This document shows, piece by piece, positions 2,893 through 41,274 of a stretch of DNA of 64,000 bases. Position numbers and translations under genes: made by a program. The stretch covers positions 110,520 through 174,519 of the forward strand of contig CAWCYX010000010.1 of the NCBI GenBank assembly GCA_963799885.1. The letters are read 5' to 3'. This DNA comes from an uncultured Gammaproteobacteria bacterium (GTDB lineage: Bacteria > Pseudomonadota > Gammaproteobacteria > Steroidobacterales > Steroidobacteraceae). The notes under the pieces are model-generated. The model made no database searches, was not told where the DNA came from, and worked only from the letters and a program-made list of their open reading frames with translations. Numbering within the stretch: the first letter of the stretch is position 1; every line of letters begins with the position of its first letter.

Positions 2893-4260
2893 TTAATTCA
2901 AATGTCTTGATATATCGTTATAAAACGCGAGGCTCATCAACACGACCAGCAGCGCAATCCCGACCTGCTGACCGAAATTCTGGGCACGCTCCGACAGCGG
3001 GCTGCCCTTCACCGCTTCCACCAACTGATAGACGATCTGTCCGCCGTCCAACAGCGGCACCGGCATCAGATTGAGCACGCCCAGGCTCACGCTGATGATG
3101 GCAAGGAAGGAGAGGAACGCCGTCAACCCGAGGTACGCACTGATACCGGCGAACTCCGCGATGCTGATCGGCCCGCTGATGTTCTTCGCCGAGACCTGTC
3201 CGGTGACGATCCGCCAGAGCATCTGCACGGTCAGCGAGGACATGTCCCAGGTTTTCATTGCGCCTAGAACCACCGCATCGACAGGCCCGGAGCGGCGCAT
3301 CGCGAGCAGACCCGGGGGCCACACCCGGGTGCCCTCGGCGAGCATGACGCCAAGCCGCCCGATCGGCCGCCCCTGCTCCATGACCCGCGCCACGGACGCT
3401 ACGATACGCAATTGCGACCCGCCGCGCTCCACTTCGATCGAAATATCTCGGCCCGGGGCGCTCGACACCATGGATTGGAAGTCCATCATGTTGACCACCG
3501 GCTGTCCGTCCACCGATAGGATTCGATCGCCGGGGCGCAACCCCGCCCGCCCGCCGGCACTGTCGGGCGGGGCGTCCTGGATCACCGTCTTGGCGCTCCA
3601 CGTCGCCAGTTCGAAGCCGAGACCCGGCATGAGTCTGCCCGGCTCGGTCAGCGCGACCCGGTCCTCGGTCACGCGCAGGACGACGGATTTCTCGGTGCCG
3701 GAGCGCTTCACCGTGAGGGGCACCAGGCCGTCGCCGGAAAAGCGGCGGATCAAAGCGATCTGCAGATCCTCTGCGTCGTCGACGCTGCGATCGCCGACCC
3801 GCACGATCTCGTCGCCGCGCTGCAAGCCCGCCACGGCGGCGGGACTGTCGAGCCGCACCTGCCCGACCACCGGTTTGACCACCTGCGATCCGACCATGGC
3901 CAGAACCGCGTAGAGCACGGTCGCGAAAATCAGGTTCATCGCCGGACCGGCGAGCAACACGGCAATCCGATGCAAGACCGGTCTACGGGTGAAAGAGCGG
4001 TGCAGCTCCGCGGGGGCGACATCCCCCTCGCGCTCATCGAGCAGCTTGACGTAACCGCCCAAGGGAATCGCCGCCACGCAATACTCGGTGCGGTCGGGGT
4101 CCCGGCCGACCCGCATCAGCAGCGGCTTGCCGAATCCGATGCTGAAGCGCAACACCTTGAATCCGAGTTTCTTGGCGACCCAATAGTGGCCGAACTCGTG
4201 GACCGCCACCAATATCCCGATCGCCACCAGGAAAGCGGCAATGAAAATCATAATTCTCAT
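2893..4260 (-). CDS. rseP: RIP zinc metalloprotease RseP (site-2 protease)
   Basis: 455 aa. HEFGHYW (HExxH) lies in the first TM region, followed by PDZ-like central segments and the C-terminal [12 protein letters not shown] motif. The start overlaps the dxr stop (ATGA). Confidence 0.9.
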
Positions 4261-5462
4261 GCGAAGGCTCCAGCGCTAGGCTCAATCAAGGCAACCGCCA
4301 GGCGTCTCGCGGCGGCGTCGGCTGCGAACACGTCCTCCAGAGCCTTGACGGAGGACGAATCGAGGCGCTGCAATACCTTGTCAATGACCGTCGCAATGCC
4401 GGTAAAGTTCAAGCGGCGGTCAAGAAACGCCTGCACGGCAACCTCGTTGGCGGCATTGAGCACCGCCGGCGCGGTGCCGCCGGCACGCGCCGCCGCTCTC
4501 GCTAAGTCAAGGCTGGGGAAGCGCACATGGTCCGGCGGTTCGAAGTCGAGCCGCCCCACGATGCTCATGTCGAGCGATTGTACACCGGAAACAACACGCT
4601 CCGGCCACGCCAAGGCCTGAGCGATCGGCGTGCGCATGTCGGGCGCCCCGAGCTGCGCCAGCAGCGAGCCATCGGCGTATTCCACCAGCGAGTGCACCAG
4701 ACTTTGCGGATGCACGACCACCGAGACCTGCGACTCGGGCAAGCCGAACAACAGCGTCGCTTCGATGACTTCGAGCCCCTTGTTCATGAGCGTCGCCGAA
4801 TCGACCGATATTTTGCGGCCCATTTTCCACTTCGGGATGATTGCAGGCCTCGTCCGGAGTCACGTGCGGCAAGCAGCGCACAGTTCCGTGACGCGAAACG
4901 GGCCGCCCGACGCGGTCAGGATCACACGCGTCACGCCGCGCGCCGCATCGCCCGGCAGATAGCCCCCCGGCATGCATTGGAAAATCGCGTTGTGCTCGCT
5001 GTCGATGGGAATGATTTCGGTGCCGGCGCGGTGCACCTCATCCATCAGCAAGCTGACCCGACATCACCAGGGATTCTTTGTTGGCGAGCAGCACCCGCTT
5101 GGCGGCACGCACCGCGGCGAGCGTCGGCAAGAGCCCGGCGGCGCCGACGATCGCGGCCATGACCATCTGCACGTTCTCCCCGGTCACGGCGACGGCTGAG
5201 CGCTTCGAGACCGGACTCGACCCGCGTCTTCGATCCGAAACGCTCGAGTGCCGCCCGCGCCTCGCCGGCGGCCTTCGGATCGACCAGCACGACGACATCG
5301 GGCTCGAAGCGCAGCGCCTGTTCGACGACCGTCTGCCAGCTGCCGTAGGCCCCCAGCATCGCCACGCGAAAGCGGTCCGGATGCAGGCCGATGACCGCAA
5401 GCGTGCTGCGCCCGATGCTGCCGGTGGAGCCCAGAATGGCGATGCCGCGGATGGTCGCTCAT
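4257..5462 (-). CDS. dxr: 1-deoxy-D-xylulose-5-phosphate reductoisomerase, reading frame broken at least four times as sequenced
   Basis: Dxr peptides are all present but spread over three reverse frames. They are: [26 protein letters not shown] (own translation, about 5440-5370); [27 protein letters not shown] (ORF 5045-5365); [38 protein letters not shown] (ORF 5038-5400); [17 protein letters not shown]...[12 protein letters not shown] (ORF 4860-5051); [11 protein letters not shown] (ORF 4507-4977); [22 protein letters not shown]... (ORF 4257-4823). Confidence 0.85.
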
Positions 5463-6271
5463 TCGATGACCCCGGAGCCGAATAGGCCCAATGCGTACAG
5501 CGGTGCGGCGGCGGTTACACTGTCGATCCGGTCGAGAAGTCCGCCATGCCCCGGCAGCAGGTTGCCGCTGTCCTTTAATCCCGCGCCCCGCTTGAACATG
5601 CTTTCGGTAAGATCCCCGATCACGGAGAAGATTCCGACGGCGCAGCCGAACATCACCCCGGCCGCCACGGGCAGCCCGAAATGCAGGCAGCCGACGAGAG
5701 CGACCAGTGCCACGGCGCCGAAACCGCCGACGGCGCCCTCCCAGGTCTTGCCCGGACTCACGCGCGGCGCCAATTTATGCCGGCCCAAACTGCGCCCCGC
5801 GAAATATGCGCCGATATCGGCGGCAAATACCAAGAGCAACATCCAAAGCACCATCTCGGGACCGCGCGCGAAGCCACGCACTGCGACCAATATGCGGGCC
5901 AAGGCAATGAACGCGGGCACCAGGACGGGCACGCCGCAGAACAGGGCCAGTGCCGGCCGATGCAATCCCGGGGCAACGCAGAGCCACAGCAGGGCGATCA
6001 TCCACCACAGGCAAGCCGCTTTCAGCAGCGTCAGCAGATGCAGGGAATCGGCGCTCCAAACCCACGCGGCGGCCGACAGCGCTACCATGGCCGCGGTATA
6101 CGCGATTCTCGAAGCACGGGAGCGCAGCGCCCCGAAGCCGGTCCACTCCCAGGCGGCCATGGTGAATATCACAGCAAACACCAGCACGGTCCACGGCGTG
6201 GGCAGCGCGAAGAGGCTGAAGAACAGGGCCGCCAGCAGGGCCGACGCGGTCAGGATGCGAATCCTAAGCAT
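5459..6271 (-). CDS. cdsA: Phosphatidate cytidylyltransferase (CDP-diglyceride synthase)
   Basis: The track ORF is 5459-6508, but its first 79 aa are Ser/Arg-rich read-through across uppS. A plausible start is ATG 6271 ([18 protein letters not shown]...). The product is multi-TM and carries the C-terminal signature [28 protein letters not shown]. Confidence 0.85.
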
Positions 6272-7004
6272 CGGCTTCCGCGGCGAGTTGCGCGGAGGTC
6301 TTGCCGAAGCGCCGCTCGCGCTCCGTGAAGAACTTGAACGCCGCATCGAGATGCGCCGCCGTGAACTCCGGCCATAGGATGTCGCAGAAATAGAGCTCGG
6401 TGTACGCGAGATTCCACAACATGAAATTGCTGATTCGCTGCTCGCCGCCGGTGCGGACCAGGAGATCAGGATCCGGAATTCCCCCACACGCGAGCCGGGC
6501 TGCCACATGCGATTCTTCGATCTCGGAGGCGGCCAGGACGCCCGCGGCCACGTCGGCTGCCAGCGAACGGCATGCCTCGGTCAGGTCCCAGCGTCCTCCG
6601 TAGGCCAGCGCCACCGTCAACACCAAGCCGGCATTGCGCGCGGTCAGCGCCTCGGCATCGACCATGCGCTGTGCCAGCGCGGCGCCCAATAATTTCCGAT
6701 CCCCCATGAAACGCAGCTGCACCCCGTTACGATGCAGCTCGGCGACTTCCCGCTCCAGCGCATCCAAGAAGAGGTTCATGAGCATTCCGACCTCATCGGG
6801 AGGTCTGCGCCAGTTCTCGCTGCTGAAGGCGAACAGCGTCAAATACCCGACATTGCGGCGTGCGCACTCCTCGACGACCTTGCGCACCACCTTGACGCTG
6901 GCACGGTGGCCGGCCGGGCGCGGCAGGCCGCGCAGACGTGCCCACCTGCCGTTGCCGTCCATGATGATGGCGACATGCGTCGGCGACTCGGCCCTAGTGC
7001 TCAC
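6264..7004 (-). CDS. uppS: Undecaprenyl-diphosphate synthase (cis-prenyltransferase)
   Basis: 246 aa. Motifs HVAIIMDGNGRWA and RTGGEQRISNFMLWNLAYTELYF. Confidence 0.92.
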   Translation of the reverse strand: MSTRAESPTHVAIIMDGNGRWARLRGLPRPAGHRASVKVVRKVVEECARRNVGYLTLFAFSSENWRRPPDEVGMLMNLFLDALEREVAELHRNGVQLRFMGDRKLLGAALAQRMVDAEALTARNAGLVLTVALAYGGRWDLTEACRSLAADVAAGVLAASEIEESHVAARLACGGIPDPDLLVRTGGEQRISNFMLWNLAYTELYFCDILWPEFTAAHLDAAFKFFTERERRFGKTSAQLAAEADA

Positions 7005-7047
7005 GGGAAATGCGGGTGCTGCATATAGGAATACTAGAGACAGGCTC

Positions 7048-7607
7048 CTAGACCTGCATCAATTCCTTTTCCTTGTCCGCCATCGCTTGATCGATTTCCG
7101 CCACATGCTTGTCGGTCAGCTTCTGAACGTCATCCTGCGCGCGGCGATCTTCGTCCTGCGCAATGAGCTTCTCCTTCAGCATCTCCTTCAAGTCGTTCAT
7201 GACTTCGCGGCGCACGTTGCGCACCGAGACTCGCGCAGCTTCCGCTTCCGAGCGCACGACCTTCGTGATGTCGCGCCGCCGCTCTTCGGTGAGCGCAGGC
7301 ATCGCAGATGCGAATCAAGGTGCCCGGCCGTATTCGGCGTCAGACCCAGATCGGACTTGTAGATCGCCTTCTCGATGATAGGGACCATGGCCTTCTCCCA
7401 CGGCGTGACGGTGAGCGTGCGGGCATCCTCCGTCGCGACGTTTGCCACCTGGTTCAGCGGCATCTCCGAGCCGTAGTAGTCGACCTTGATGTGTTCGATC
7501 AGGCTGGTATGCGCCCGGCCGGTGCGCAGCTTCTTCAGTTGGTCTCTGAACGTCGACACGCACTTCGCCATGCGCAGCGCGGCGTCTTTCTTCAATTCGT
7601 CGAGCAT
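7048..7607 (-). CDS. frr: Ribosome recycling factor, two frame changes as sequenced
   Basis: N-terminal part is ORF 7197-7607 ([57 protein letters not shown]...). C-terminal part is ORF 7048-7302 ([32 protein letters not shown]...[25 protein letters not shown]). The short linker GTLIRI reads only in the third frame. The breaks are at the C-run 7323-7325 and at 7303-7306. Confidence 0.85.
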
Positions 7608-7618
7608 GGTCCTACCCC

Positions 7619-8366
<748 letters not shown>

Positions 8367-8443
8367 GGTCGGGTACCCTACTATAAAAGACCCCGCGTGC
8401 GCGGGGTCCCTAACTCATCTTAATGGGTGCATGTAATTGAGTC

Positions 8444-14983: not shown

Positions 14984-15114
14984 ACGCGCGGAACTGCGAC
15001 AACACTGTTGTGTATGCCGGAACTGCGGGGGCGCAGCGGTGTTCCGACACGGTGTGGAGGTGCATCCGCGTTGCATCGGCGGCAGGTAAGCGATTCTCGT
15101 ATCGAGGTGCATTC

Positions 15115-15626
15115 ATGCGTAATCGGCCACCGTTGCTTTGCATTGCCGCAAGCCTTGCCGCTCTCGGTCTGGGTATTTCGGGAATTTCCGACACGCGTGC
15201 AGCGGCTACCCGCAACATGGGGGATGGCGCCGTCCCGATGGGTACTTCGGCCGCGGTTGGAATCGGGGCGGCTGGGGCGCATTGGGGTACGGACTCTATT
15301 TCTCGGCGCTGCCTTGGAATTGCGACCTCTACTACTGGGGTGGGGTGCCCTACTACTACGCGGACGACACATACTACGAATGGAATGGGACCGCCGGTGC
15401 GTACGAGTCTGTCCGCCCGCCTCCTGGCCGTGCCGACCAGGTTGCGGCTCAAGAGCCAGTCGTGACGGAGCTGTTCGTATTTCCAAATGACGGCCAGACG
15501 AACGAGCAGATGGACCGCGATCGAACAGAATGCCATCAATGGGCTGCAGAGGTCCGTCCGTTTGGTCAGGTCTCATGGCCGCGAACCGGCCATGAGACTC
15601 CTGAACTGGTCGGATGCATCGATTAG
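15115..15626 (+). pseudogene. Degraded copy 1 of the secreted Gly/Tyr-rich protein family (frame change, C-terminal module missing)
   Basis: The signal peptide MRNRPPLLCIAASLAALGLGISG (ATG 15115) is in the frame of ORF 15010-15465. The family core GYFGRGWNRGGWGALGYGLYFSALPW...GGVPYYYADDTYYEWNG...YESVRPPP...LFVFPNDGQTNEQMDRDRTECHQWAAE is in the frame of ORF 15138-15626. After ECHQWAAE no frame encodes the ACL(E/D)GRxYSV end found in copies 2 and 3. Confidence 0.55.
15570..15598. terminator. 12-bp-stem hairpin between convergent genes (candidate porin terminator, no U-tract)
   Basis: GTCTCATGGCCG-cgaac-CGGCCATGAGAC read directly. It starts 25 nt after the porin stop on the minus strand. No T-run follows on either strand, so it is not a canonical intrinsic terminator. 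Confidence 0.3.
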
Positions 15627-17934: not shown

Positions 17935-19467
17935 TCACGGCGCCGAACCCGTCAGCACCCGCCGAAACGCCGCAATGATCGCGGGCTGCGGTCGCCGGAT
18001 GGCCGGAACGGATTGATAGTTCTGCCACCCGCCGCCGAGGCTCCTATACAGCTGCACAAACTGCTCGCCCTGGGCCACCTGCGCCTCGGCGTACTGCTCC
18101 TGCAGATCATAAAATTGGCGTTCGGCGTCGACGACATTGAGGAAATCCGTCAGGCCGCGATTGTAGCGAGAGGTCGCCAACTCGACGGCGCGTTGACCTG
18201 CCATCATTGCGCCGGTTAGCTTCTCCATGCGCACCTGTTGGGCCTGATAGGCATCGAGAGACGTATCCACCTGCTGCACTGCGTTCAAGATGGACTTCCG
18301 GTAATTCACCAGGCTCACGCGAGCGGCCAATTGCGCGATGTCGACCTGCGCATCGAGTGCTCCGAAGTCGAGAAACGGCCACACGGCGCCCGGTCCGAAT
18401 GACCAAATATGCTTGCTGACGCCGGGGGTGGTCCCCCACCCCTGTCCCTGGCTGCCGATCGAACCGACCAGGGCGACCTGGGGAAAAAGATTGGCGGTTG
18501 CCACGCCGATACGCGCGGTCGCTGCCGCGAGCTCGCGCTCCGCCACCTGGATATCCGGTCGACGCTTCAACAGGTCGAGCGGAACGCCCGGTGGTGTGGG
18601 CGCCGGCATCGTGGGAATGAGATCGAGTTTCGAGAGCTCTTGAACCATGTTCTCCGGATATTCGCCGACCAGCACCGCCAGCGTGTATTGCGCGGCATTC
18701 ACCTCGGCTTCCACCGGGGCGACCTGCGCTTCGAGCGTCGCGAGTTCCCGGGTGGCGAGCGCCACATCGAGCTCGTTCGTAATGCCGCGCTCATAGCGAA
18801 TCTTGACGATGCGCACCGACTCGCGCAGCACATCGCTCGCGCTGTGCAAGATGCGGGCACGCACCTGGAGTCCGCGAAGATCAACGTAAGCGCGCACCAC
18901 GTCGGCTACCACGGAGATGAGCACGTCGTAGCGCGCGGCGCGCGCCGCTTCGGTTTCGGCCCGCGCTGCCTGGAACTCCCGGCGGAATTTGCCGAAGAGG
19001 TCGAGTTCCCAGACGGCATCGAACCCGGCGATCGTGTTGATGTGTTGCAGGCCCGCGCCATTGTCTGCGGATCTCAGCCCTTGGTCGGCGCGCCCCTTGG
19101 TGAGGTCGCTTCCCGTGCCCCGCCCGGCCGCAGCGCTTGCCTCCACGTCCGGCAGTGCATATCCGAGCATCACCGCCTCGTAGGTGCGGGCCTGCTGCAA
19201 TCGATCCAGCGCGATTTCGAGGTCCAGATTAGACTTGACCGCTCGATCGATGAGCGAATTCAGTTCCCCGTCATTCAAAGCGCGCCACCAGGTGGCCAAT
19301 TCCGGCGGGGAGGCGGCGGGTTGACTGCCCGATCCCGGCGAATTCGCGTCAACTTTTGCGGCGAAGTCGGCAGGCTCATCGGGTTGTGGAACGCGGTACG
19401 CGGGGCCGGCCGCACAGGCCGCCAAACTTGCGACCAACCCCAAAACCATGAACTGTGACGCTTTCAC
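17935..19467 (-). CDS. RND efflux outer-membrane factor lipoprotein (NodT/OprM family)
   Basis: 510 aa. Lipobox LVASLAAC, two repeated alpha/beta halves, and the typical C-terminus QLYRSLGGGW. Confidence 0.88.
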   Translation of the reverse strand: MKASQFMVLGLVASLAACAAGPAYRVPQPDEPADFAAKVDANSPGSGSQPAASPPELATWWRALNDGELNSLIDRAVKSNLDLEIALDRLQQARTYEAVMLGYALPDVEASAAAGRGTGSDLTKGRADQGLRSADNGAGLQHINTIAGFDAVWELDLFGKFRREFQAARAETEAARAARYDVLISVVADVVRAYVDLRGLQVRARILHSASDVLRESVRIVKIRYERGITNELDVALATRELATLEAQVAPVEAEVNAAQYTLAVLVGEYPENMVQELSKLDLIPTMPAPTPPGVPLDLLKRRPDIQVAERELAAATARIGVATANLFPQVALVGSIGSQGQGWGTTPGVSKHIWSFGPGAVWPFLDFGALDAQVDIAQLAARVSLVNYRKSILNAVQQVDTSLDAYQAQQVRMEKLTGAMMAGQRAVELATSRYNRGLTDFLNVVDAERQFYDLQEQYAEAQVAQGEQFVQLYRSLGGGWQNYQSVPAIRRPQPAIIAAFRRVLTGSAP

Positions 19468-24076: not shown

Positions 24077-24115
24077 AGTGACTCTGGTCACTTTTTGCCA
24101 GTGACTAAAGTCACT
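24077..24115. promoter_or_regulatory. Two perfect AGTGAC-N4-GTCACT palindromes upstream of the RND operon (candidate operator)
   Basis: AGTGACtctgGTCACT at 24077-24092 and AGTGACtaaaGTCACT at 24100-24115 (centres 23 bp apart). A related AGTCATGACT lies at 24064-24073. All sit in the 138-bp gap between the regulator stop (24139) and the permease start (24000). Confidence 0.5.
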
Positions 24116-24138
24116 TTCTTTGAGCCGCGTGACGCAAC

Positions 24139-25017
24139 TCATTCGGGGCGCGACTGTCTCTTCGACAGCAGAGCCAGTTCGGTCCTCGTGTTGGCGTGCA
24201 GCTTTTCCATGATTCGACTGACGTAATTCTTCACGGTGCCTTCGGCAAGGAACAGCGTGGAAGCGATCTGTCTATTGCTCATGCTCTCGGAGATGAGTTG
24301 TAAAATCTTCTCCTCTTTGTCGCTCAATGGCTGCGTGTCGAGGATCCTTTGCGCCGAGGGATTCTTCTCGGATATGGGGGCATTGAGGACGCCTTCGTGA
24401 ACAGGTTCGGCATTGGTCACCGGCGCGAGACGGCGAAACTGGTCCATTACCTTGCGAGCAATCTGAGGGGTCAATCGCGACTCTCCGCGCCTCAGGCCGC
24501 GGATGGTCTCCAGCAGTTCGTCTTCGTCCACATCCTTCAGCAGGTACGCCTGGGCGCCCGCCCGCACTGCCTCGAACACCGTTTCATCGTCATTGAGCGT
24601 CGTCAACACGAGGACTTGCGTATTCGGAAGCGACCGTGTGATTTCGCGAGTCGCGGCAACTCCTCCCTTGAGCGGCATATGTAAATCCATCAATATCACA
24701 TCGGGTTGCAGCAATTGCGCGAGTTCGACGGCTTCGATGCCGTTGCGCGCCTGGCCGACCACCTCCATGTCGGGTTCCATGGACAGCAATACTGCGGCGC
24801 CCCGACGCACGAGTGCCTGATCGTCGGCGATGATGATTCGTATCGCCGAATGATCGGTTCGCTCACCGGGCGTCACGGGAGAGCACTCATACGAGCAGCT
24901 CCCGAGTCGGCCCATGAGCCTTTGATTGATGGCGATCTTGCATGAATATCCCGAAGCCATTTCCTGAAGCGCCATCATGCAACCCGGAGAGTACAGTTTG
25001 GAAGTGACTTTAGTCAC
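24139..25017 (-). CDS. NarL/FixJ (LuxR-type) response regulator, no adjacent kinase
   Basis: Receiver IRIIIADDQALVRRG...DVILMDLHMP...VLVLTTLNDD...AYLLKD, and LuxR HTH LSDKEEKILQLISESMSNRQIASTLFLAEGTVKNYVSRIMEKL. The track start (GTG 25017) lies inside a palindrome. ATG 24915 (MGRLGS..., AAAGG 4 nt upstream) is a more plausible start. Confidence 0.85.
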   Translation of the reverse strand: MTKVTSKLYSPGCMMALQEMASGYSCKIAINQRLMGRLGSCSYECSPVTPGERTDHSAIRIIIADDQALVRRGAAVLLSMEPDMEVVGQARNGIEAVELAQLLQPDVILMDLHMPLKGGVAATREITRSLPNTQVLVLTTLNDDETVFEAVRAGAQAYLLKDVDEDELLETIRGLRRGESRLTPQIARKVMDQFRRLAPVTNAEPVHEGVLNAPISEKNPSAQRILDTQPLSDKEEKILQLISESMSNRQIASTLFLAEGTVKNYVSRIMEKLHANTRTELALLSKRQSRPE

Positions 25018-25018
25018 T
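25003..25018. promoter_or_regulatory. Third AGTGAC-N4-GTCACT palindrome at the sigma/regulator junction
   Basis: AGTGACtttaGTCACT read directly. It lies 3 nt after the inferred sigma stop (25021-25023) and upstream of the likely regulator start. Confidence 0.5.
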
Positions 25019-25020
25019 TG

Positions 25021-25666
25021 TTAACGTGGAGGCCGTGACCAGCCCAAGGTACGCTCACACAACTGCAATCGTGCGGTTTCCGACGGGCTCATCGTGATGT
25101 CGGATGGTGCGATGCACCAACCGGCGCCTTGACCAACCCATTCCACGGCGTCATTACGTCCGACACCCGTAGGCTATCGTGCGGGCGCGTCGCCGATGCT
25201 CATCTGTCAGCGCGAGTTCTTCGGGCGTATCAAGATCCGTCAGTGCTGTGAAGGAATGATCGGTGTGCTCGGCCTCCCGGCGGTTGGACGCCAAAACGCT
25301 CGCGTTGCGCGCGCCAAGCGACAACATGGTCTTCGCAGAATTGATGGCAACGCGATGAAGCCAGGAATAGAAAGCCGACTCGCCGCGAAAGTTCTGCAAC
25401 CCCCAATAAGCATTGATGAAGGTAATCTGGACCACATCCTCCGCGTCGTCGCGATTGCCCATGTAGCGCATCGAAAGCTTCATCACCCGCTGCCGATATT
25501 TGCGTACCAGTGCATTAAATGCGCCGTGCTCACCTGACTGAGCGCGCACCACGAGCATTTGGTCGCAAGGCGCCGCATCCGCACTCAGATCCAAGTCCGC
25601 TGAGTGGCGCGGTAGCCTCCCGTGTTTTGACTCATTCCTCTCGGAGATGGATTCCGGATACATCAT
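25021..25666 (-). CDS. RpoE/AlgU-like ECF sigma factor, sigma-4 region out of frame as sequenced
   Basis: ORF 25154-25666 has sigma-2, LVVRAQSGEHGAFNALVRKYRQRVMKLSMRYMGNRDDAEDVVQITFINAYWGLQNFRGESAFYSWLHRVAINSAKTML, closely resembling E. coli RpoE as I remember it. It stops at ...TIAYGCRT. In another frame, 25165-25021 reads PTGVGRNDAVEWVGQGAGWCIAPSDITMSPSETARLQLCERTL, a divergent sigma-4.2 HTH pattern. This implies one indel near 25167. Confidence 0.65.
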
Positions 25667-25701
25667 GTCGACGGTTATGTTGGGGCCGTTAGATTAGAAT
25701 T

Positions 25702-25748
25702 GCCATAAGATCACATTAGAAAATGCGGACCGAGCTCACACTAACCGC
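25702..25748. repeat. Left arm of an imperfect inverted repeat flanking the two-component operon
   Basis: gccataagatcaCATTAGAAAATGCGGaccgagctcacactaaccgc. The 15-bp core at 25714-25728 is the exact reverse complement of 28246-28260. By hand alignment the arms match at 36 of 47 columns. Confidence 0.6.
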
Positions 25749-25912
25749 TGATCGAGGGAGTGCGGGCGCGGCTACTCACCTTTTCGGCGTCAATTCCGGC
25801 GCCCGCCCCGCACTGTCAATTGCTCGCGGGGCGTCGACCGCGCACTCGCTACCTTGCGCTTGGCAATTGCGCGAGCACCGAGGGAACACGGCATGAGAGC
25901 AACTTAATGATG

Positions 25913-25931
25913 TTCTAACGGTCTTCTAATG
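25913..25931 (+). promoter_or_regulatory. TTCTAA-N5-TTCTAATG direct repeat upstream of the OmpR-family regulator (candidate autoregulatory site)
   Basis: The hexamers start at 25913 and 25924, an 11-bp period. They lie 36 nt upstream of GTG 25967, which has AGGAG at 25957-25961. The 8-mer TTCTAATG is shared with the inverted-repeat cores. Confidence 0.35.
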
Positions 25932-25966
25932 GACGCCATATGCAATGTTGAGCTGTAGGAGTCCCA

Positions 25967-26665
25967 GTGCGAATACTGATTGTCGAAGATGATCGTAAAC
26001 TAGCGGAATTCGTCGCTCGCGGGCTACGCGCGGAGCGATTCGCTGTCGACCTCGCGGGCAATGGTCGAGAAGGCGAGACCTATGTCAACTCCTACGAATA
26101 CGATCTACTCGTACTTGATTTGATGCTTCCGCAATTGAGCGGCACCGAACTGTTGCGGCGGGTGCGCCAGTCCCATTCCTCGTTGCCGGTCCTCGTCCTT
26201 ACTGCGCGCGACGCGATCGATGACAAAGTGATGCATTTCGAGGCGGGTGCCGACGATTACCTGACCAAGCCTTTCGACTTCGCCGAGTTGTTAGTGCGTA
26301 TCAAGGCCCTCCTGCGCCGCTCACCCGCCGAGCGGGTCGATGTCTTACGCATCGCGGATCTCGAACTCAACCGGGTCACCCAGCAAGTCAGGCGCAATGG
26401 CCATCGGATTGATCTAACCGCAAAGGAATATGCATTGTTCGAATATTTGTTGTGTTCGCCCGGCCGGGTATTTTCGAGGACCATGATACTCAATCATGTA
26501 TGGGATCAGAGCTTCGAGGGAGTGACCAACATTGTGGATGTGTACGTCCGGTACCTGCGCAGAAAGGTCGACGAGCCGTTTCCAATCAAGCTCATTCACA
26601 CCGTGCGTGGAGTGGGCTATTGTGTGCGCGACGCGGAACTCGAGCGCCATGCTGCACTGGAATGA
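25967..26665 (+). CDS. OmpR-family response regulator, CusR/CopR-like
   Basis: MRILIVEDDRKLAEFVARGL...DLLVLDLMLP...VLVLTARDAIDDKVMHFEAGADDYLTKPFDFAELLVRIKALLRR...LTAKEYALFEYLL...TNIVDVYVRYLRRKVDEPFPIKLIHTVRGVGY. The pattern matches heavy-metal regulators of the CusR/CopR type as I recall them. Confidence 0.9.
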   Translation: MRILIVEDDRKLAEFVARGLRAERFAVDLAGNGREGETYVNSYEYDLLVLDLMLPQLSGTELLRRVRQSHSSLPVLVLTARDAIDDKVMHFEAGADDYLTKPFDFAELLVRIKALLRRSPAERVDVLRIADLELNRVTQQVRRNGHRIDLTAKEYALFEYLLCSPGRVFSRTMILNHVWDQSFEGVTNIVDVYVRYLRRKVDEPFPIKLIHTVRGVGYCVRDAELERHAALE

Positions 26666-28206
26666 ATCATCGATCGCTCGCATTTCGGTTGGGCGCGTGG
26701 TACACGCTGCTCTTGAGCGCGACATTTGCACTCGTCGGCACGGCTACTTTCTACGGCCTGCAACATTACCTACGCTCGAATTTGCGCGATTCCGTGAGCC
26801 GGCGGTCAACTCAGGTCGAGGAAATACTTCTCCAGGCACCTGCCGACGCTAGCAATGGTGCGATTGGCAGGGAAATCGAGACTCGGGTCGCGCCGGAATT
26901 CAACAATCGCTTCGTACGCGTGACCCGTGCGCCGGCGACAATGATTTATCGTTCCGGTCCACCCGTCGATCGAAGCTTCGATCCGGCGTTGGTGAGGGCG
27001 GTTCGACATGCGGACGCCACCAACATCGGGTCGCCCGTTACGGCGATCGTGGGAGATCAGCATCTCATGATTCGCGCGACACCTGTGAGCACGCGATCCG
27101 GCACGTATCTCGTCGAGCTCGGTGTCTCGATAGATCCCATCGACGCGGTGCTAAACCGCCTGCTTGATCTTCTCGCCGTACTACTCCCTGTGCTTATGGT
27201 CTGCGCGGCGGGGGGCGGCTACTGGCTCGTGAATTGGGCGCTACGCCCCGTCGATCGACTTTCACAAACCGCCGAACAAATGAGTTTACAGAATTTGACA
27301 CTACGGCTTCCGGTCGTGCCGAGCGGCGATGCCCTGGAGCGCCTATCGATCTCCCTCAACACCATGCTAGGACGCTTGCGCGACTCCGTACAGACATCGC
27401 GGCGCTTTCTAGCGGATGCATCCCACGAACTTCGAACGCCACTGACGGTAATTAAAGGCGAACTTCAGGAACTGGCCGGTGAATCCCCATTGACCAAACG
27501 GGACCTGCGCGAACGGGTCGGCAGCGTACTCGAAGAAGTGGCACGCCTGGAGCACTTGGTGTTCGGATTACTCGTTCTGTCGCGCCTCGACGCCGGCGAG
27601 CCTCAGGTCGATTGGGCCGACGTCGACCTCGCGGAACTGGCGTCGAGCACCGCCGATCAGATGCGTCTGATGGCGGACGATCGCGGTATTGAGATCGAGT
27701 TCTCCGCGCTGCGAAAAGCGCTGGTCCGCGGGGATCGGGCACGGCTGAAGCAGATCGTGGTCAACCTTCTCGACAATGCGATCCGTTTTACCAAACGAGG
27801 AGGGACCGTATGGCTGCGCACCGCAATGGACGATGCGGGCAGCGTCCTCGAGGTCTCTGATACCGGGGTTGGTATTCCAGCGGACTCGATATCCCATGTA
27901 TTTGATCGGTTCTATCGTGTAGCTGAGGCCCGCTCGCGCGAGGACGGCGGGGCGGGCCTTGGATTGTCAATTGTGAAATCGATTTGCTCGGCGCATGGCG
28001 CAGAAATCGAGGTTGAGAGCCGGGTGGATGCCGGTAGCTGCTTCCGAGTGAGCTTCCCGCTCGCCCGGCGATCCAGCGTCGCAACCGCTAGCGATGCACC
28101 CCGCACGCTCCATTCCAATACGTCATCGGGTCGAGAGTGCCCGAGCAACACGCTGGTCCCGATTGAAGTTTCGGCAAACCCGCAGGAGATGACCCTGAAA
28201 AGGTGA
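26662..28206 (+). CDS. Sensor histidine kinase (HisKA/HATPase), CusS/CopS-like
   Basis: Start ATG 26662 overlaps the regulator stop (ATGA). Two TM segments flank a periplasmic region of about 150 aa. It has a HAMP domain, the H-box FLADASHELRTPLTVIKGEL, the N-box NLLDNAIRFT and the G-boxes DTGVGIP / GGAGLGLSIV. Confidence 0.88.
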   Translation: MNHRSLAFRLGAWYTLLLSATFALVGTATFYGLQHYLRSNLRDSVSRRSTQVEEILLQAPADASNGAIGREIETRVAPEFNNRFVRVTRAPATMIYRSGPPVDRSFDPALVRAVRHADATNIGSPVTAIVGDQHLMIRATPVSTRSGTYLVELGVSIDPIDAVLNRLLDLLAVLLPVLMVCAAGGGYWLVNWALRPVDRLSQTAEQMSLQNLTLRLPVVPSGDALERLSISLNTMLGRLRDSVQTSRRFLADASHELRTPLTVIKGELQELAGESPLTKRDLRERVGSVLEEVARLEHLVFGLLVLSRLDAGEPQVDWADVDLAELASSTADQMRLMADDRGIEIEFSALRKALVRGDRARLKQIVVNLLDNAIRFTKRGGTVWLRTAMDDAGSVLEVSDTGVGIPADSISHVFDRFYRVAEARSREDGGAGLGLSIVKSICSAHGAEIEVESRVDAGSCFRVSFPLARRSSVATASDAPRTLHSNTSSGRECPSNTLVPIEVSANPQEMTLKR

Positions 28207-28225
28207 GTGCCCGCTTCCCCGAAGT

Positions 28226-28271
28226 GCGGTTTGTGTGAAGCCTGCCCGCATTTTCTAATGCGACGTTAGGC
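28226..28271. repeat. Right arm of the inverted repeat flanking the two-component operon
   Basis: Its reverse complement reads gcctaacgtcgCATTAGAAAATGCGGgcaggcttcacacaaaccgc. It lies between the convergent kinase stop (28206) and the Gly-rich gene stop (28295). Confidence 0.6.
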
Positions 28272-28294
28272 TATGATTCAGCGCCGACCCCTTC

Positions 28295-29056
28295 CTAGTT
28301 CACACTGTAGTTGCGACCTTCAAGACATGCGCCATCGGCGCGCAGAAACTCACCACGCTGCGCGGCTGTAATATTCTTCGTCGCGGGAGTCGCCACCGGT
28401 GGGGTCGCTCCGGCTGTGCCGGGCGTCGCAACGGCGGTGGTGAGTGACGATGGGTCTGCCGCTGGATTTGGATCGACGCCGGACTGTGCAGCGGCCCAGC
28501 GATGGCACTCCGCATGATCCTGCGCTTGTTGTTCGTTCGACTGCCCCGCCTTGGGATACACAAACAGCTGATTCACGACCGGCTGCTGAGTCTTCACCTC
28601 ATCGGCGAGTCCGGCCGGCGGTCGGACGGTTTCGTATTCGCCCACATCACCATTCCATGTGTAGTAAACATCGTCGGCGTAGTAGTAGGGGACGCCGTCC
28701 CATAGATAGGTGTCGTAGTACCAGGGAAGGGCGCCGAAAAAGAGACCATACCCCAAACCTCCGTAGAATCCTCCGCCATACCAACCGCGACCGTAGCCGC
28801 GTCCATACCAGCCCCGACCATAGCCGTGCCCATAGCCGTAGCTTCCCGGTCCATGCCAGCCGCCACGGTAGCCGCCCCCGCGAAATCCGCCGCCACCATG
28901 AAAACCACCGCCGCCATGGAAGCCGCCGCCGCCATGGAAGCCGCCGCCTCCGTGGCCACCGCTGCCCCCTGAATGTGCTACTGCCGATCCAGAAATGCCT
29001 AAGCCGACGGCGGCGAGAGCGCCGACGATCGAAAGCAGTCGTCGTTGGGTACGCAT
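28295..29056 (-). CDS. Secreted Gly/His/Tyr-rich protein, family copy 2
   Basis: 253 aa. Signal peptide MRTQRRLLSIVGALAAVGLGISGSAVA, then GGGGFH x4, GYGRGWYG repeats, GLGYGLFFGALPWYYDTYLWDGVPYYYADDVYYTWNG, VYPKAGQSNEQQAQDHAECHRWAAAQSGVDP, and the C-terminal ADGACLEGRNYSVN. Confidence 0.8.
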   Translation of the reverse strand: MRTQRRLLSIVGALAAVGLGISGSAVAHSGGSGGHGGGGFHGGGGFHGGGGFHGGGGFRGGGYRGGWHGPGSYGYGHGYGRGWYGRGYGRGWYGGGFYGGLGYGLFFGALPWYYDTYLWDGVPYYYADDVYYTWNGDVGEYETVRPPAGLADEVKTQQPVVNQLFVYPKAGQSNEQQAQDHAECHRWAAAQSGVDPNPAADPSSLTTAVATPGTAGATPPVATPATKNITAAQRGEFLRADGACLEGRNYSVN

Positions 29057-29127
29057 GAAGTCATCTCGATAGCGGGCTCCGCCGCTTGTGTGGCAATGCT
29101 ACTTGGTGGTCGCGCGTTCATACTCCG

Positions 29128-29155
29128 TTAGATTGCCCTCGCCACTCCTAGTTCC
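29128..29155 (-). promoter_or_regulatory. SigmaE-type promoter candidate for Gly-rich copy 2
   Basis: The minus strand reads GGAACT-aggagtggcgagggcaa-TCTAA (17-nt spacer). It lies about 70 nt upstream of ATG 29056. Confidence 0.4.
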
Positions 29156-40421: not shown

Positions 40422-40531
40422 GAGCCTCCTTGCCACGACGAACGACCGCGCCACGCCGGCGGCCGGCGGTCCGGCGTAGGCCATCGGCAGGGCGGCCGGT
40501 AAGCAGGCCGCCCCGGAGCACGCCGGAAATT

Positions 40532-40559
40532 GGAACTGCCTCGCCATTGCGGGGTCAAA
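40532..40559 (+). promoter_or_regulatory. SigmaE-type promoter candidate for Gly-rich copy 3
   Basis: GGAACT-gcctcgccattgcgggg-TCAAA (17-nt spacer), about 45 nt upstream of ATG 40606. It follows an 8-bp GC hairpin at 40490-40513. Confidence 0.4.
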
Positions 40560-40605
40560 ATGCGCAGAAGCCGCGGTCGTCCCGGCCGCCGCAACTGGTG
40601 GAATT

Positions 40606-41274
40606 ATGAAAAATCAACGCCCCGTCCGGTCGAATATCGTGGTGATCTGTCTGGCTGCCCTCCTGCTGAGCAGCGGTACCGCACTCGCTCAGGGTCACGC
40701 CGGCGGCGGTGGGCACGCGGCGGTGGGTCACGGCGGTTACGGCGGCGGCTACCGTGGCGGTTACGGCGGCGGGTATCGCGGCGGTTATGGATACCGTGGC
40801 GGCTACGGCTGGCGCGGCGGCTACGGCTGGCGCGGCGGCTACGGCTGGGGCGGCTGGGGTTGGGGTTGGGCAGGACTTGGGCTCGGTCTCTACTTCGCAA
40901 CGCTGCCGCTCTATTACTCCACGCTCTGGTGGGACGGCACTCCCTATTACTACGCGGATGGCACGTACTACCTGTACGATGGCCGGGTTCGTCAATACGT
41001 CACCGTGGCGCCGCCGCCCGAAATACAGAGTCAAGTCGGTGCGCAGGGCGGTGAACAAGAACCGATCGGCACGGACCTCATCGCCTACCCGAAGAACGGC
41101 CAGAGCGCCGACCAGCAGGCGAAGGACAAATACGAGTGCCACCATTGGGCAGCCGCACAAAGCGGCTTCGATCCCACCCTGGGTGCGGCCGCGCCGGCGC
41201 GCGCCTCCAAACGTACCGACTACATGCGGGCACAGGCCGCCTGCCTCGATGGGCGAGGCTACAGCGTCAAATAG
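40606..41274 (+). CDS. Secreted Gly/Tyr/Trp-rich protein, family copy 3
   Basis: 222 aa. Signal peptide ...[15 protein letters not shown], then GGYRGGYG / GGYGWR repeats, [68 protein letters not shown], and the C-terminal [14 protein letters not shown]. Confidence 0.8.

What the first reader, a model, noticed from the sequence alone, without database searches (positions are those of the whole stretch)
29128..29155. Identical sigmaE-type promoter geometry (GGAACT-N17-TC(T/A)AA) upstream of both intact Gly-rich paralogues
Copy 2 (minus strand, 29155-29128) reads GGAACT-aggagtggcgagggcaa-TCTAA. Copy 3 (plus strand, 40532-40559) reads GGAACT-gcctcgccattgcgggg-TCAAA. Both have a 17-nt spacer and lie 45-70 nt before the start codon.

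The degraded copy 1 keeps two GGAACTGCG boxes (14990-14998 and 19019-19027 offset corrected: 15019-15027) but only a poor -10 (TCCGA). This fits the RpoE/AlgU-class consensus GGAACTT-N16-TCnAA.

The same window encodes an RpoE-like sigma (25021-25666), RseP, BamA and Skp. The family may therefore be an envelope-stress (ECF sigma) regulon member.
Basis: partly seen in the sequence, partly recalled or inferred. Interest (0 to 1): 0.65.

Follow-up and report, generated by a model that had tools for sequence, protein, structure and literature searches.

The report
Conserved sigma-E-type promoter of glycine-rich genes
Two paralogous genes for exported glycine-rich proteins of unknown function, in a soil Steroidobacteraceae-like genome, each sit behind a promoter of the well-known sigma-E (ECF) type; the promoter is conserved in dozens of related genomes, so it is almost certainly real but an ordinary kind of element.

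Summary
GGAACT-N17-TC(T/A)AA occurs exactly twice in 64 kb, 46 and 71 nt before the start codons of the two intact Gly-rich paralogues (0.00 expected). Outside the two boxes the upstream regions are unrelated.

The geometry equals the E. coli sigma-E consensus (GGAACTT-N16-TCAAA). Copy 3 reads GGAACTG-N16-GGTCAAAA.

Comparative evidence is strong. In 80 homologous loci from Steroidobacteraceae and related metagenome-assembled genomes, GAAC-N17-GTC lies upstream in sense in 36 (about 4 expected, 0 antisense). The boxes are conserved and the spacers are random.

No sigma-70-like promoter is present. Soil metatranscriptome contigs of close relatives start 8-60 nt downstream of the predicted start site. 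One low-depth run reads through.

The window's "RpoE-like sigma" is a truncated remnant: residues 1-156, no sigma-4 domain, with the junction confirmed by an Illumina read. Its intact orthologues are RpoE paralogues without an anti-sigma factor. They sit in a conserved response regulator-kinase-sigma module next to copy-2-type Gly-rich genes. RseP, BamA and Skp are housekeeping neighbours without this promoter.

Verdict: a genuine ECF-type promoter, a new member of a known kind. The cognate sigma is inferred, not shown.

The parts
29150..29155 (-). -35 element GGAACT of the copy-2 promoter
   Evidence: matches E. coli sigma-E -35 GGAACTT in 6 of 7 positions
29128..29132 (-). -10 element TCTAA of the copy-2 promoter (preceded by A, not the family's usual G)
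29121..29122 (-). predicted transcription start of copy 2 (5-6 nt discriminator); inferred, not mapped
   Evidence: discriminator rule from PMC1312014; no RNA runs found for this stretch
28295..29056 (-). Gly-rich paralogue 2 (253 aa): signal peptide, HGGGGF/GYR/GW repeats, conserved C-terminal domain with two Cys. 'Type B' subfamily, which elsewhere is divergent from an RR-HK-sigma module
40532..40537 (+). -35 element GGAACT(G) of the copy-3 promoter
   Evidence: family PWM score 25.4 bits against a null maximum of 15.6
40553..40560 (+). extended -10 element GGTCAAAA of the copy-3 promoter (core TCAAA 40555-40559)
   Evidence: identical to the E. coli sigma-E -10 motif (T/C)GGTCAAAA
40565..40566 (+). 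predicted transcription start of copy 3; inferred
   Evidence: Metatranscriptome contigs of close relatives end at 40574, 40581, 40590, 40590, 40621 and 40624. In 10 of 12 runs nothing is laid upstream of these ends; X27 has only separate low-depth contigs ending at 40494; X28 has low-depth contigs that cross the promoter
40606..41274 (+). Gly-rich paralogue 3 (222 aa), 'type A' subfamily, syntenic with a HisKA_3 kinase and a 179-aa secreted protein
14990..15047 (+). decayed promoter of copy 1: two GGAACTGCG boxes, the second followed after 18 nt by TCCGA
15115..15626 (+). Gly-rich copy 1, broken over at least two reading frames with a shortened repeat region and a divergent C-terminus. Real decay or assembly indels cannot be told apart
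25154..25666 (-). truncated RpoE-like ECF sigma gene (residues 1-156 of about 244; sigma-2 only)
   Evidence: an Illumina-derived 151-nt contig with 0 differences spans the junction (25176-25326)
25967..28206 (+). OmpR-type response regulator (25967-26665) and sensor kinase (26662-28206) of the heavy-metal CopRS/CzcRS-like family. In other genomes these lie directly upstream of the intact sigma

Best explanation
The two sites are functional promoters read by RNA polymerase carrying an RpoE/AlgU-class ECF sigma factor.

Mechanism (inferred): sigma domain 4 binds the -35 GGAACT and domain 2 binds the -10 (G)TC(A/T)AA across a 16/17-nt spacer. Transcription should start about 6 nt downstream, near 40566 and 29121. 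This gives leaders of about 40 and 65 nt ahead of genes for exported Gly/Tyr/Arg/His-rich proteins of unknown function.

The promoter belongs to the gene family, not to this genome. It is conserved upstream of both synteny types of the family across Steroidobacteraceae-like genomes.

The most likely cognate sigma is the family of RpoE paralogues encoded as response regulator - histidine kinase - sigma, without an anti-sigma factor, next to copy-2-type genes. In that reading the two-component system controls how much sigma is made, and the sigma then fires the Gly-rich promoters. In this genome the linked copy is truncated, so another RpoE-class sigma elsewhere in the genome would have to do the job.

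Shown: sequence, statistics, conservation, synteny, sigma truncation, and transcription of the gene in soil.
Inferred: sigma dependence, start sites, and the cascade.
For: - Only two matches in 64 kb, both directly upstream of the paralogues. The flanks and spacers are unrelated.
- The geometry and boxes equal the E. coli sigma-E consensus (PMC1312014).
- GAAC-N17-GTC lies upstream in sense in 36 of 80 homologous loci, with 0 antisense and a background of 0.047 per 700 nt.
- Positions not used for selection are also conserved (T at -2/-1, TG after GAAC, A/G before GTC, A at +26), while the spacer carries about 0.1 bit per column.
- A family PWM gives 37 sites of at least 15 bits in the Gly-upstream windows against 10 elsewhere in 955 kb.
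- Median distance from the -10 to the ATG is 57 nt.
- No sigma-70-like promoter is found in either upstream region.
- RNA contigs begin 8-60 nt downstream of the predicted start site in 6 runs.
- An intact sigma orthologue aligns end to end with E. coli sigma-E (PDB 1OR7, E 1e-46). The sigma-4 stretch GTVRSRxFRAREAID is identical. Its best NCBIfam hit is RpoE.
- The RR-HK-sigma module is present in 9 of 10 sigma loci. A Gly-rich gene with GGAACT-N17/18-GTC(A/G)A lies divergently beside it in L082, L083, L087, L088 and L090, and in L031, L036, L044 and L049.
Against: - No 5' end has been mapped. The RNA evidence comes from assembled contigs of related strains. One run (X28) has low-depth contigs crossing the promoter.
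- The only sigma gene in the window lacks sigma-4.
- Copy 2 has ATC rather than GTC at the -10.
- There is no A/T-rich UP element.
- The sigma genes do not carry the motif upstream of themselves, so the usual auto-regulation argument is unavailable.
- About half of the 80 loci, mostly the distant subfamily with a different N-terminus, lack the motif.
- GGAAC/GTC-type boxes are shared by several ECF groups, so the sigma assignment rests on resemblance and synteny only.
Confidence: 0.72

Rival explanations
1. The promoters are real ECF promoters but are read by a different ECF sigma: either the lineage's canonical RpoE with RseA/RseB, or an unrelated ECF group with a similar GGAAC/GTC motif. The RR-HK-linked paralogue would then be irrelevant.
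For: - AAC-containing -35 boxes are common to many group IV sigmas (PMC1540707).
- Type A genes (copy 3) are not near any sigma gene.
- In this genome the linked sigma is dead, yet copy 3 keeps a near-perfect site and close relatives are transcribed in soil.
- The linked sigmas show no auto-regulatory motif.
Against: - The linked sigma has the same sigma-4 recognition stretch as E. coli sigma-E.
- It is repeatedly adjacent to motif-bearing Gly-rich genes, which are the highest-scoring sites in those loci.
Confidence: 0.2
2. The conserved two-box element is a binding site for a transcription factor, for example one of the neighbouring response regulators, and not a promoter.
For: Both synteny types have two-component systems next door.
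Against: - The boxes are neither direct nor inverted repeats of each other.
- The spacing is fixed at 17 nt (occasionally 18) over random sequence, as for -35/-10 pairs.
- The element is strictly oriented: 0 antisense hits.
- It sits 30-130 nt before the ATG.
- No other promoter is detectable.
- A different conserved element, TTCTAAT...CGTTAG...TAAT, is a better candidate response-regulator site.
Confidence: 0.05
3. Chance, or a non-functional relic of the gene duplication.
For: The genes are paralogues, so some shared upstream sequence could be inherited.
Against: - 0.00 matches are expected by chance.
- Flanks and spacers are unrelated.
- The boxes are retained across dozens of diverged orthologues while the spacers randomise.
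Confidence: 0.02

Closest known systems
E. coli sigma-E (RpoE, ECF02) promoters (Rhodius et al. 2006, PMC1312014)
   Same: -35 GGAACT(T), a 16-nt spacer counted from GGAACTT, and -10 GGTCAAAA/TCnAA. The targets are exported or envelope proteins.
   Different: There is no A/T-rich UP element. The family consensus is TGAACTG ... aGTC(t/a)(a/t)A rather than GGAACTT ... TCAAA. The classical regulon members in the window (rseP, bamA, skp) have no significant site. The target gene family is unknown in E. coli.
RpoE/AlgU sigma with RseA/MucA anti-sigma (ECF02 regulatory module)
   Same: The linked sigma is about as close to E. coli sigma-E as many true orthologues (E 1e-46, identical sigma-4 DNA-contact stretch).
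   Different: It scores below the NCBIfam RpoE equivalog cut-off (214 against 236 bits). No RseA/RseB-like gene lies beside it in 10 loci. It follows a response regulator and a kinase instead.
Streptomyces coelicolor sigma-E with CseB/CseC (ECF39), and other two-component-linked ECF groups (ECF32, ECF234) listed by Casas-Pastor et al. 2021 (PMC7826278)
   Same: An ECF sigma without an anti-sigma factor, encoded next to a two-component system that is thought to control its transcription.
   Different: Phylum, gene order (RR-HK-sigma here) and sigma clade (RpoE-like) all differ. The paper's list of two-component-linked groups (ECF15, ECF246, ECF32, ECF234, ECF39) contains no proteobacterial RpoE-like group with an OmpR-type system. 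Control of the sigma gene by the regulator is not shown here.

Membership tests
sigma-E / ECF02-type promoter | -35 element GGAACTT | tested here: met
   GGAACTG (copy 3) and GGAACTA (copy 2), 6 of 7 positions
sigma-E / ECF02-type promoter | 16-nt spacer between GGAACTT and TCAAA (range 15-19) | tested here: met
   Both sites have exactly 16 nt by that count, which equals N17 after GGAACT. 36 family sites share it.
sigma-E / ECF02-type promoter | -10 element (T/C)GGTCAAAA, core TCAAA | tested here: met
   Copy 3 has GGGTCAAAA. Copy 2 has CAATCTAAC, i.e. the core TC.AA only.
sigma-E / ECF02-type promoter | A/T-rich UP element upstream of the -35 | tested here: not met
   The 40 nt upstream of both -35 boxes are G+C-rich.
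sigma-E / ECF02-type promoter | transcription start 5-6 nt downstream of the -10 | tested here: inconclusive
   RNA contigs of related strains end at 40574-40624 and none further upstream in 10 of 12 runs. X27 has only separate low-depth contigs ending at 40494; X28 contigs cross the promoter. Contig ends are not mapped 5' ends.
sigma-E / ECF02-type promoter | dependence on the sigma factor in vivo or in vitro | not testable with these tools
   Needs a reporter assay or in vitro transcription.
RpoE (ECF02) sigma factor, for the window gene 25154-25666 | sigma-2 and sigma-4 domains both present | tested here: not met
   Only Sigma70_r2 is found. RpoE model positions 5-130 of 190 are covered. 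No sigma-4 coding sequence exists anywhere in the window.
RpoE (ECF02) sigma factor, for intact orthologues | score above the NCBIfam TIGR02939 equivalog cut-off | tested here: not met
   P0125 scores 214.4 bits against a cut-off of 236.15.
RpoE (ECF02) sigma factor, for intact orthologues | co-encoded RseA/RseB anti-sigma module | tested here: not met
   The neighbours are RR and HK upstream and BON, Usp, porin, DUF2844 or arylsulfotransferase genes downstream. No RseA or MucB domains appear in 10 loci.
Two-component-controlled ECF sigma without anti-sigma (as ECF39) | two-component system adjacent and no anti-sigma gene | tested here: met
   9 of 10 sigma loci.
Two-component-controlled ECF sigma without anti-sigma (as ECF39) | response regulator drives the sigma gene's promoter | tested here: inconclusive
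   A conserved element TTTTCTAATg.g.CGTTAGG..ATTTTTAATCT lies upstream of the sigma genes. A similar box was seen by eye near the RR genes in the sequences printed. Binding is not shown.

The most novel reading that the evidence does not exclude
The promoters are the output of an undescribed signalling cascade. A heavy-metal-type two-component system controls transcription of an anti-sigma-less RpoE paralogue. That sigma's dedicated targets are a family of exported Gly/His/Tyr/Arg-rich proteins and related lipoproteins that share a novel C-terminal domain, possibly acting in metal or envelope stress in soil Steroidobacteraceae.
Probability: 0.35. Interest if true: 0.55.

Novelty: new member of a known kind. 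Interest (0 to 1): 0.4.

Why it matters
It gives a testable regulatory handle on a large protein family (more than 1,400 homologues in soil metagenomes) that has no Pfam or NCBIfam assignment and no fold match. The family is visibly transcribed in soils.

It also points to an RpoE-like sigma that is wired to a two-component system instead of an anti-sigma factor. That arrangement is not listed for Proteobacteria in the 2021 ECF classification.

For genome annotation, it shows that the sigma-E promoter model transfers to an uncultured gammaproteobacterial family.

Tried and rejected
- A PWM scan of the window for further sites found nothing above the shuffle maximum. This includes upstream of rseP, bamA and skp. 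The best other case is a 9.2-bit GAAC-N18-GTC 121 nt before rseP, inside dxr.
- I looked for an auto-regulatory motif upstream of the sigma genes and of the RR-HK operons. None was found.
- Rfam search of the long conserved 5' leaders in L014, L015, L024 and L039 gave no family.
- The AlphaFold2 model of copy 3 has a confident C-terminal domain (pLDDT 80-94) but no significant PDB match.
- No RNA runs were listed for copy 2.
- DNA runs could not decide whether copy 1, dxr and pyrH are truly frameshifted. Copy 1 is absent from the related strains and coverage of the dxr/pyrH stretch was too sparse.
- Short sigma homologues in the database were checked as a possible functional sigma-2-only class. 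They are contig-end fragments or frameshifted forms.
- The hairpin between the upstream gene and the copy-3 promoter is not more stable than shuffled sequence.

Full report
**1. Observation**

The minus strand at 29155-29128 reads GGAACT-aggagtggcgagggcaa-TCTAA. The plus strand at 40532-40559 reads GGAACT-gcctcgccattgcgggg-TCAAA. These are the only two matches to GGAACT-N17-TCWAA on either strand of the 64-kb window. Dinucleotide-preserving shuffles expect 0.00. The looser GGAACT-N15-18-TCNAA also finds only these two, with 0.23 expected.

The sites end 71 and 46 nt before the ATG codons of two paralogous ORFs: 28295-29056 (minus strand, 253 aa) and 40606-41274 (plus strand, 222 aa). When the two upstream regions are anchored on the -35 box, they are 17% identical upstream, 12% in the spacer, 100% in the -35 and 80% in the -10. 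The shared boxes are therefore not a leftover of a duplicated block.

The third, broken copy (about 15115-15626) has two GGAACTGCG boxes as described. The second is followed after 18 nt by TCCGA.

**2. What kind of element it is**

For 28 mapped E. coli sigma-E promoters, Rhodius et al. report a -35 motif GGAACTTTT and a -10 motif (T/C)GGTCAAAA. They find a strongly preferred 16-nt spacer between GGAACTT and TCAAA, and a 5-6-nt discriminator (PMC1312014). GGAACT-N17-TCNAA is that same geometry. Copy 3 (GGAACTG-N16-GGTCAAAA) is a near-perfect match.

The simple sigma-70 scan finds no promoter-like site in either upstream region.

**3. Comparative test**

The proteins have no Pfam or NCBIfam family. 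They do have more than 1,400 homologues in soil metagenomes, and the named ones come from Steroidobacteraceae. All share the same layout: a signal peptide, a Gly/His then Gly-Tyr/Trp-Arg repeat region, a hydrophobic [12 protein letters not shown] stretch, and a conserved C-terminal domain with two invariant Cys.

I fetched 80 homologous genomic loci.
- GAAC-N17-GTC occurs in sense within 700 nt upstream of the match in 36 of them. It never occurs antisense. The background is 0.047 per 700 nt, or about 4 expected.
- Thirty of the 36 are among the 44 closest loci.
- Positions that were not part of the search pattern are also conserved. The consensus is gTTGAACTG(a/c)-N13-(a/g)GTC(n)(a/t)A. The spacer columns carry only about 0.1 bit each.
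- The -10 box lies a median of 57 nt before the start codon.
- A PWM built from these sites scores copy 3 at 25.4 bits. The maximum in 20 shuffled windows is 15.6.
- Across all 80 loci the PWM finds 37 sites of at least 15 bits in the Gly-rich upstream windows and only 10 elsewhere in 955 kb.

Several of those 10 lie before neighbouring genes for exported proteins. They include lipoproteins that carry the same C-terminal domain, and a second tandem Gly-rich copy. Boxes that stay fixed while the spacer randomises, with strict orientation and position, are the signature of a -35/-10 promoter under selection.

**4. Transcription evidence**

Twelve soil metatranscriptome runs were laid on the copy-3 region as assembled contigs of close relatives, not raw reads.
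- Contigs that reach the 5' part of the gene end at 40574, 40581, 40590, 40590, 40621 and 40624. All lie downstream of the predicted start at 40565/40566.
- In ten runs nothing is laid upstream of these ends.
- One further run (X27) has only separate low-depth contigs over the upstream gene and its tail, ending at 40494.
- One run (X28) has depth-3 contigs that cross the promoter. This could be read-through or DNA.

This pattern is consistent with the predicted start but is not a mapping. No RNA run was listed for copy 2.

**5. The sigma factor**

The ORF 25154-25666 has only Sigma70_r2 and covers positions 5-130 of the 190-position RpoE model.
- Its homologues are 205-250 aa and have regions 2 and 4.
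- The window copy aligns to residues 1-156 and then diverges into 14 unrelated codons and a stop.
- No sigma-4 coding sequence exists in any frame nearby or anywhere else in the window.
- A 151-nt Illumina-derived contig with no differences spans the junction at 25176-25326. The truncation is therefore not a long-read assembly artefact.

The intact orthologue P0125 aligns end to end with E. coli sigma-E (PDB 1OR7, E 1e-46). The stretch GTVRSRxFRAREAID in sigma-4 is identical. It nevertheless scores below the NCBIfam RpoE equivalog cut-off, 214 against 236 bits.

In 9 of 10 loci the sigma follows an OmpR-type response regulator and a sensor kinase of the heavy-metal (CopRS/CzcRS-like) family. 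No RseA/RseB-like gene is present, and RND efflux genes are often nearby. The window holds the same genes in a rearranged order.

**6. Link between the sigma and the promoter**

The family splits into two synteny types.
- Type A, which includes copy 3, lies after a HisKA_3 kinase and a 179-aa secreted protein.
- Type B, which includes copy 2 and probably copy 1, lies divergently next to the RR-HK-sigma module. Examples are L031, L036, L044, L049, L082, L083, L087, L088 and L090.

Every type B gene examined has GGAACT-N17/18-GTC(A/G)A upstream. In the sigma loci these are by far the highest-scoring PWM sites, at 15-23 bits. A CBS-domain gene is a second target in two loci.

The sigma genes lack the motif. 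Instead they carry a conserved element, TTTTCTAATg.g.CGTTAGG..ATTTTTAATCT. A similar box is visible near the RR start in the sequences printed. This fits a sigma-70 promoter and/or a response-regulator site.

Together this suggests, but does not prove, a cascade: two-component system, then sigma, then Gly-rich genes. Casas-Pastor et al. list ECF15, ECF246, ECF32, ECF234 and ECF39 as the two-component-linked groups. None is a proteobacterial RpoE-like group (PMC7826278).

**7. What is not supported**

RseP, BamA and Skp belong to the standard dxr-rseP-bamA-skp cluster. They have no significant site. The window therefore gives no evidence that the Gly-rich genes belong to the classical envelope-stress regulon.

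The function of the products is unknown. The AlphaFold2 model has a confident C-terminal domain without a PDB match. The His/Gly-rich repeats and the metal-type two-component system and RND neighbours hint at metal or envelope stress, but that is speculation.

**8. Verdict**

The element is very probably a functional ECF promoter of the sigma-E class and is conserved with the gene family. The specific sigma gene named is a dead copy, and the cognate sigma remains inferred.

The promoter is a new member of a known kind. The RR-HK-sigma module is a modestly novel variant that deserves an experiment.

Noticed in passing
window 25154-28206; loci L081-L090: A conserved three-gene module: OmpR-type response regulator, heavy-metal-type sensor kinase, and an RpoE-like ECF sigma without any anti-sigma gene. 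It is present in 9 of 10 sigma loci, often beside RND efflux genes. In the window the module is rearranged (the sigma is divergent from the RR, and the Gly-rich gene is convergent with the HK) and the sigma is truncated.
   Followed up: partly
window about 25690-25730 (minus strand); L081-L084, L087 at about 5880-5980; L036, L049: A conserved element, TTTTCTAATg.g.CGTTAGG..ATTTTTAATCT, lies just upstream of the sigma genes. A similar box in the opposite orientation was seen by eye near the RR start codons. It reads as a sigma-70-like promoter (TTCTAA-N17-TTTAAT) and/or a response-regulator site. The window copy is degenerate.
   Followed up: partly
window 4257-8400 (minus strand): dxr is split over at least three reading frames, and pyrH lacks its N-terminal part in frame. 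These are normally essential genes. Either this stretch of the assembly has indel errors or the genes are decaying. Illumina coverage was too sparse to decide. This also makes 'copy 1 is degraded' uncertain.
   Followed up: partly
L052, L062, L067 (about 2040-2090, plus strand); L016, L033 (about 500, minus strand); L011 (1857): High-scoring copies of the same promoter motif precede neighbouring genes. These include lipoproteins (lipobox, Pro-rich linker) that end in the same YAYPxxGQSxEQ...C...C domain as the Gly-rich family, a small secreted protein, and a second tandem Gly-rich gene.
   Followed up: partly
L014, L015, L024, L026, L039, between the -10 box and the ATG: These loci have long (about 100 nt) leaders with conserved blocks such as GGTCAACC-ctatagta-GGTTG and TTGTAATGGTTTATTTGACCCAGA. 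There is no Rfam match. This may be a leader RNA structure.
   Followed up: partly
window 40594-40608 and most type A loci: A strongly conserved translation-initiation region, TGGTGAcGTTATG, lies immediately before the start codon of the Gly-rich genes.
   Followed up: no
window 4381-4413 (minus strand): CTTGAACTTT-N14-GGTCATTGA (GAAC-N18-GTC) lies 121 nt upstream of rseP, inside dxr. It resembles a sigma-E site in a place where E. coli has one, but at 9.2 bits it is not above chance.
   Followed up: partly
window 24100-29100: Third-position G+C of the sigma remnant, NarL-type regulator, RR, HK and copy 2 is below about 0.70 (their ORFs are at or under the 0.68 selection cut-off). Most other genes are at 0.75-0.85. 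This suggests a foreign or decaying island.
   Followed up: no
window 14984-15626: In related soil strains the sequence after the dapD stop codon diverges at once, and copy 1 is not found. Copy 1 therefore looks like a lineage-specific insertion downstream of dapD.
   Followed up: partly
window 40728-40859: Metatranscriptome contig depth rises to about 300 over the GGYRGGYGW repeat region. Many partly fitting contigs map there from other family members, so depth in this stretch is not a measure of this gene's expression.
   Followed up: no
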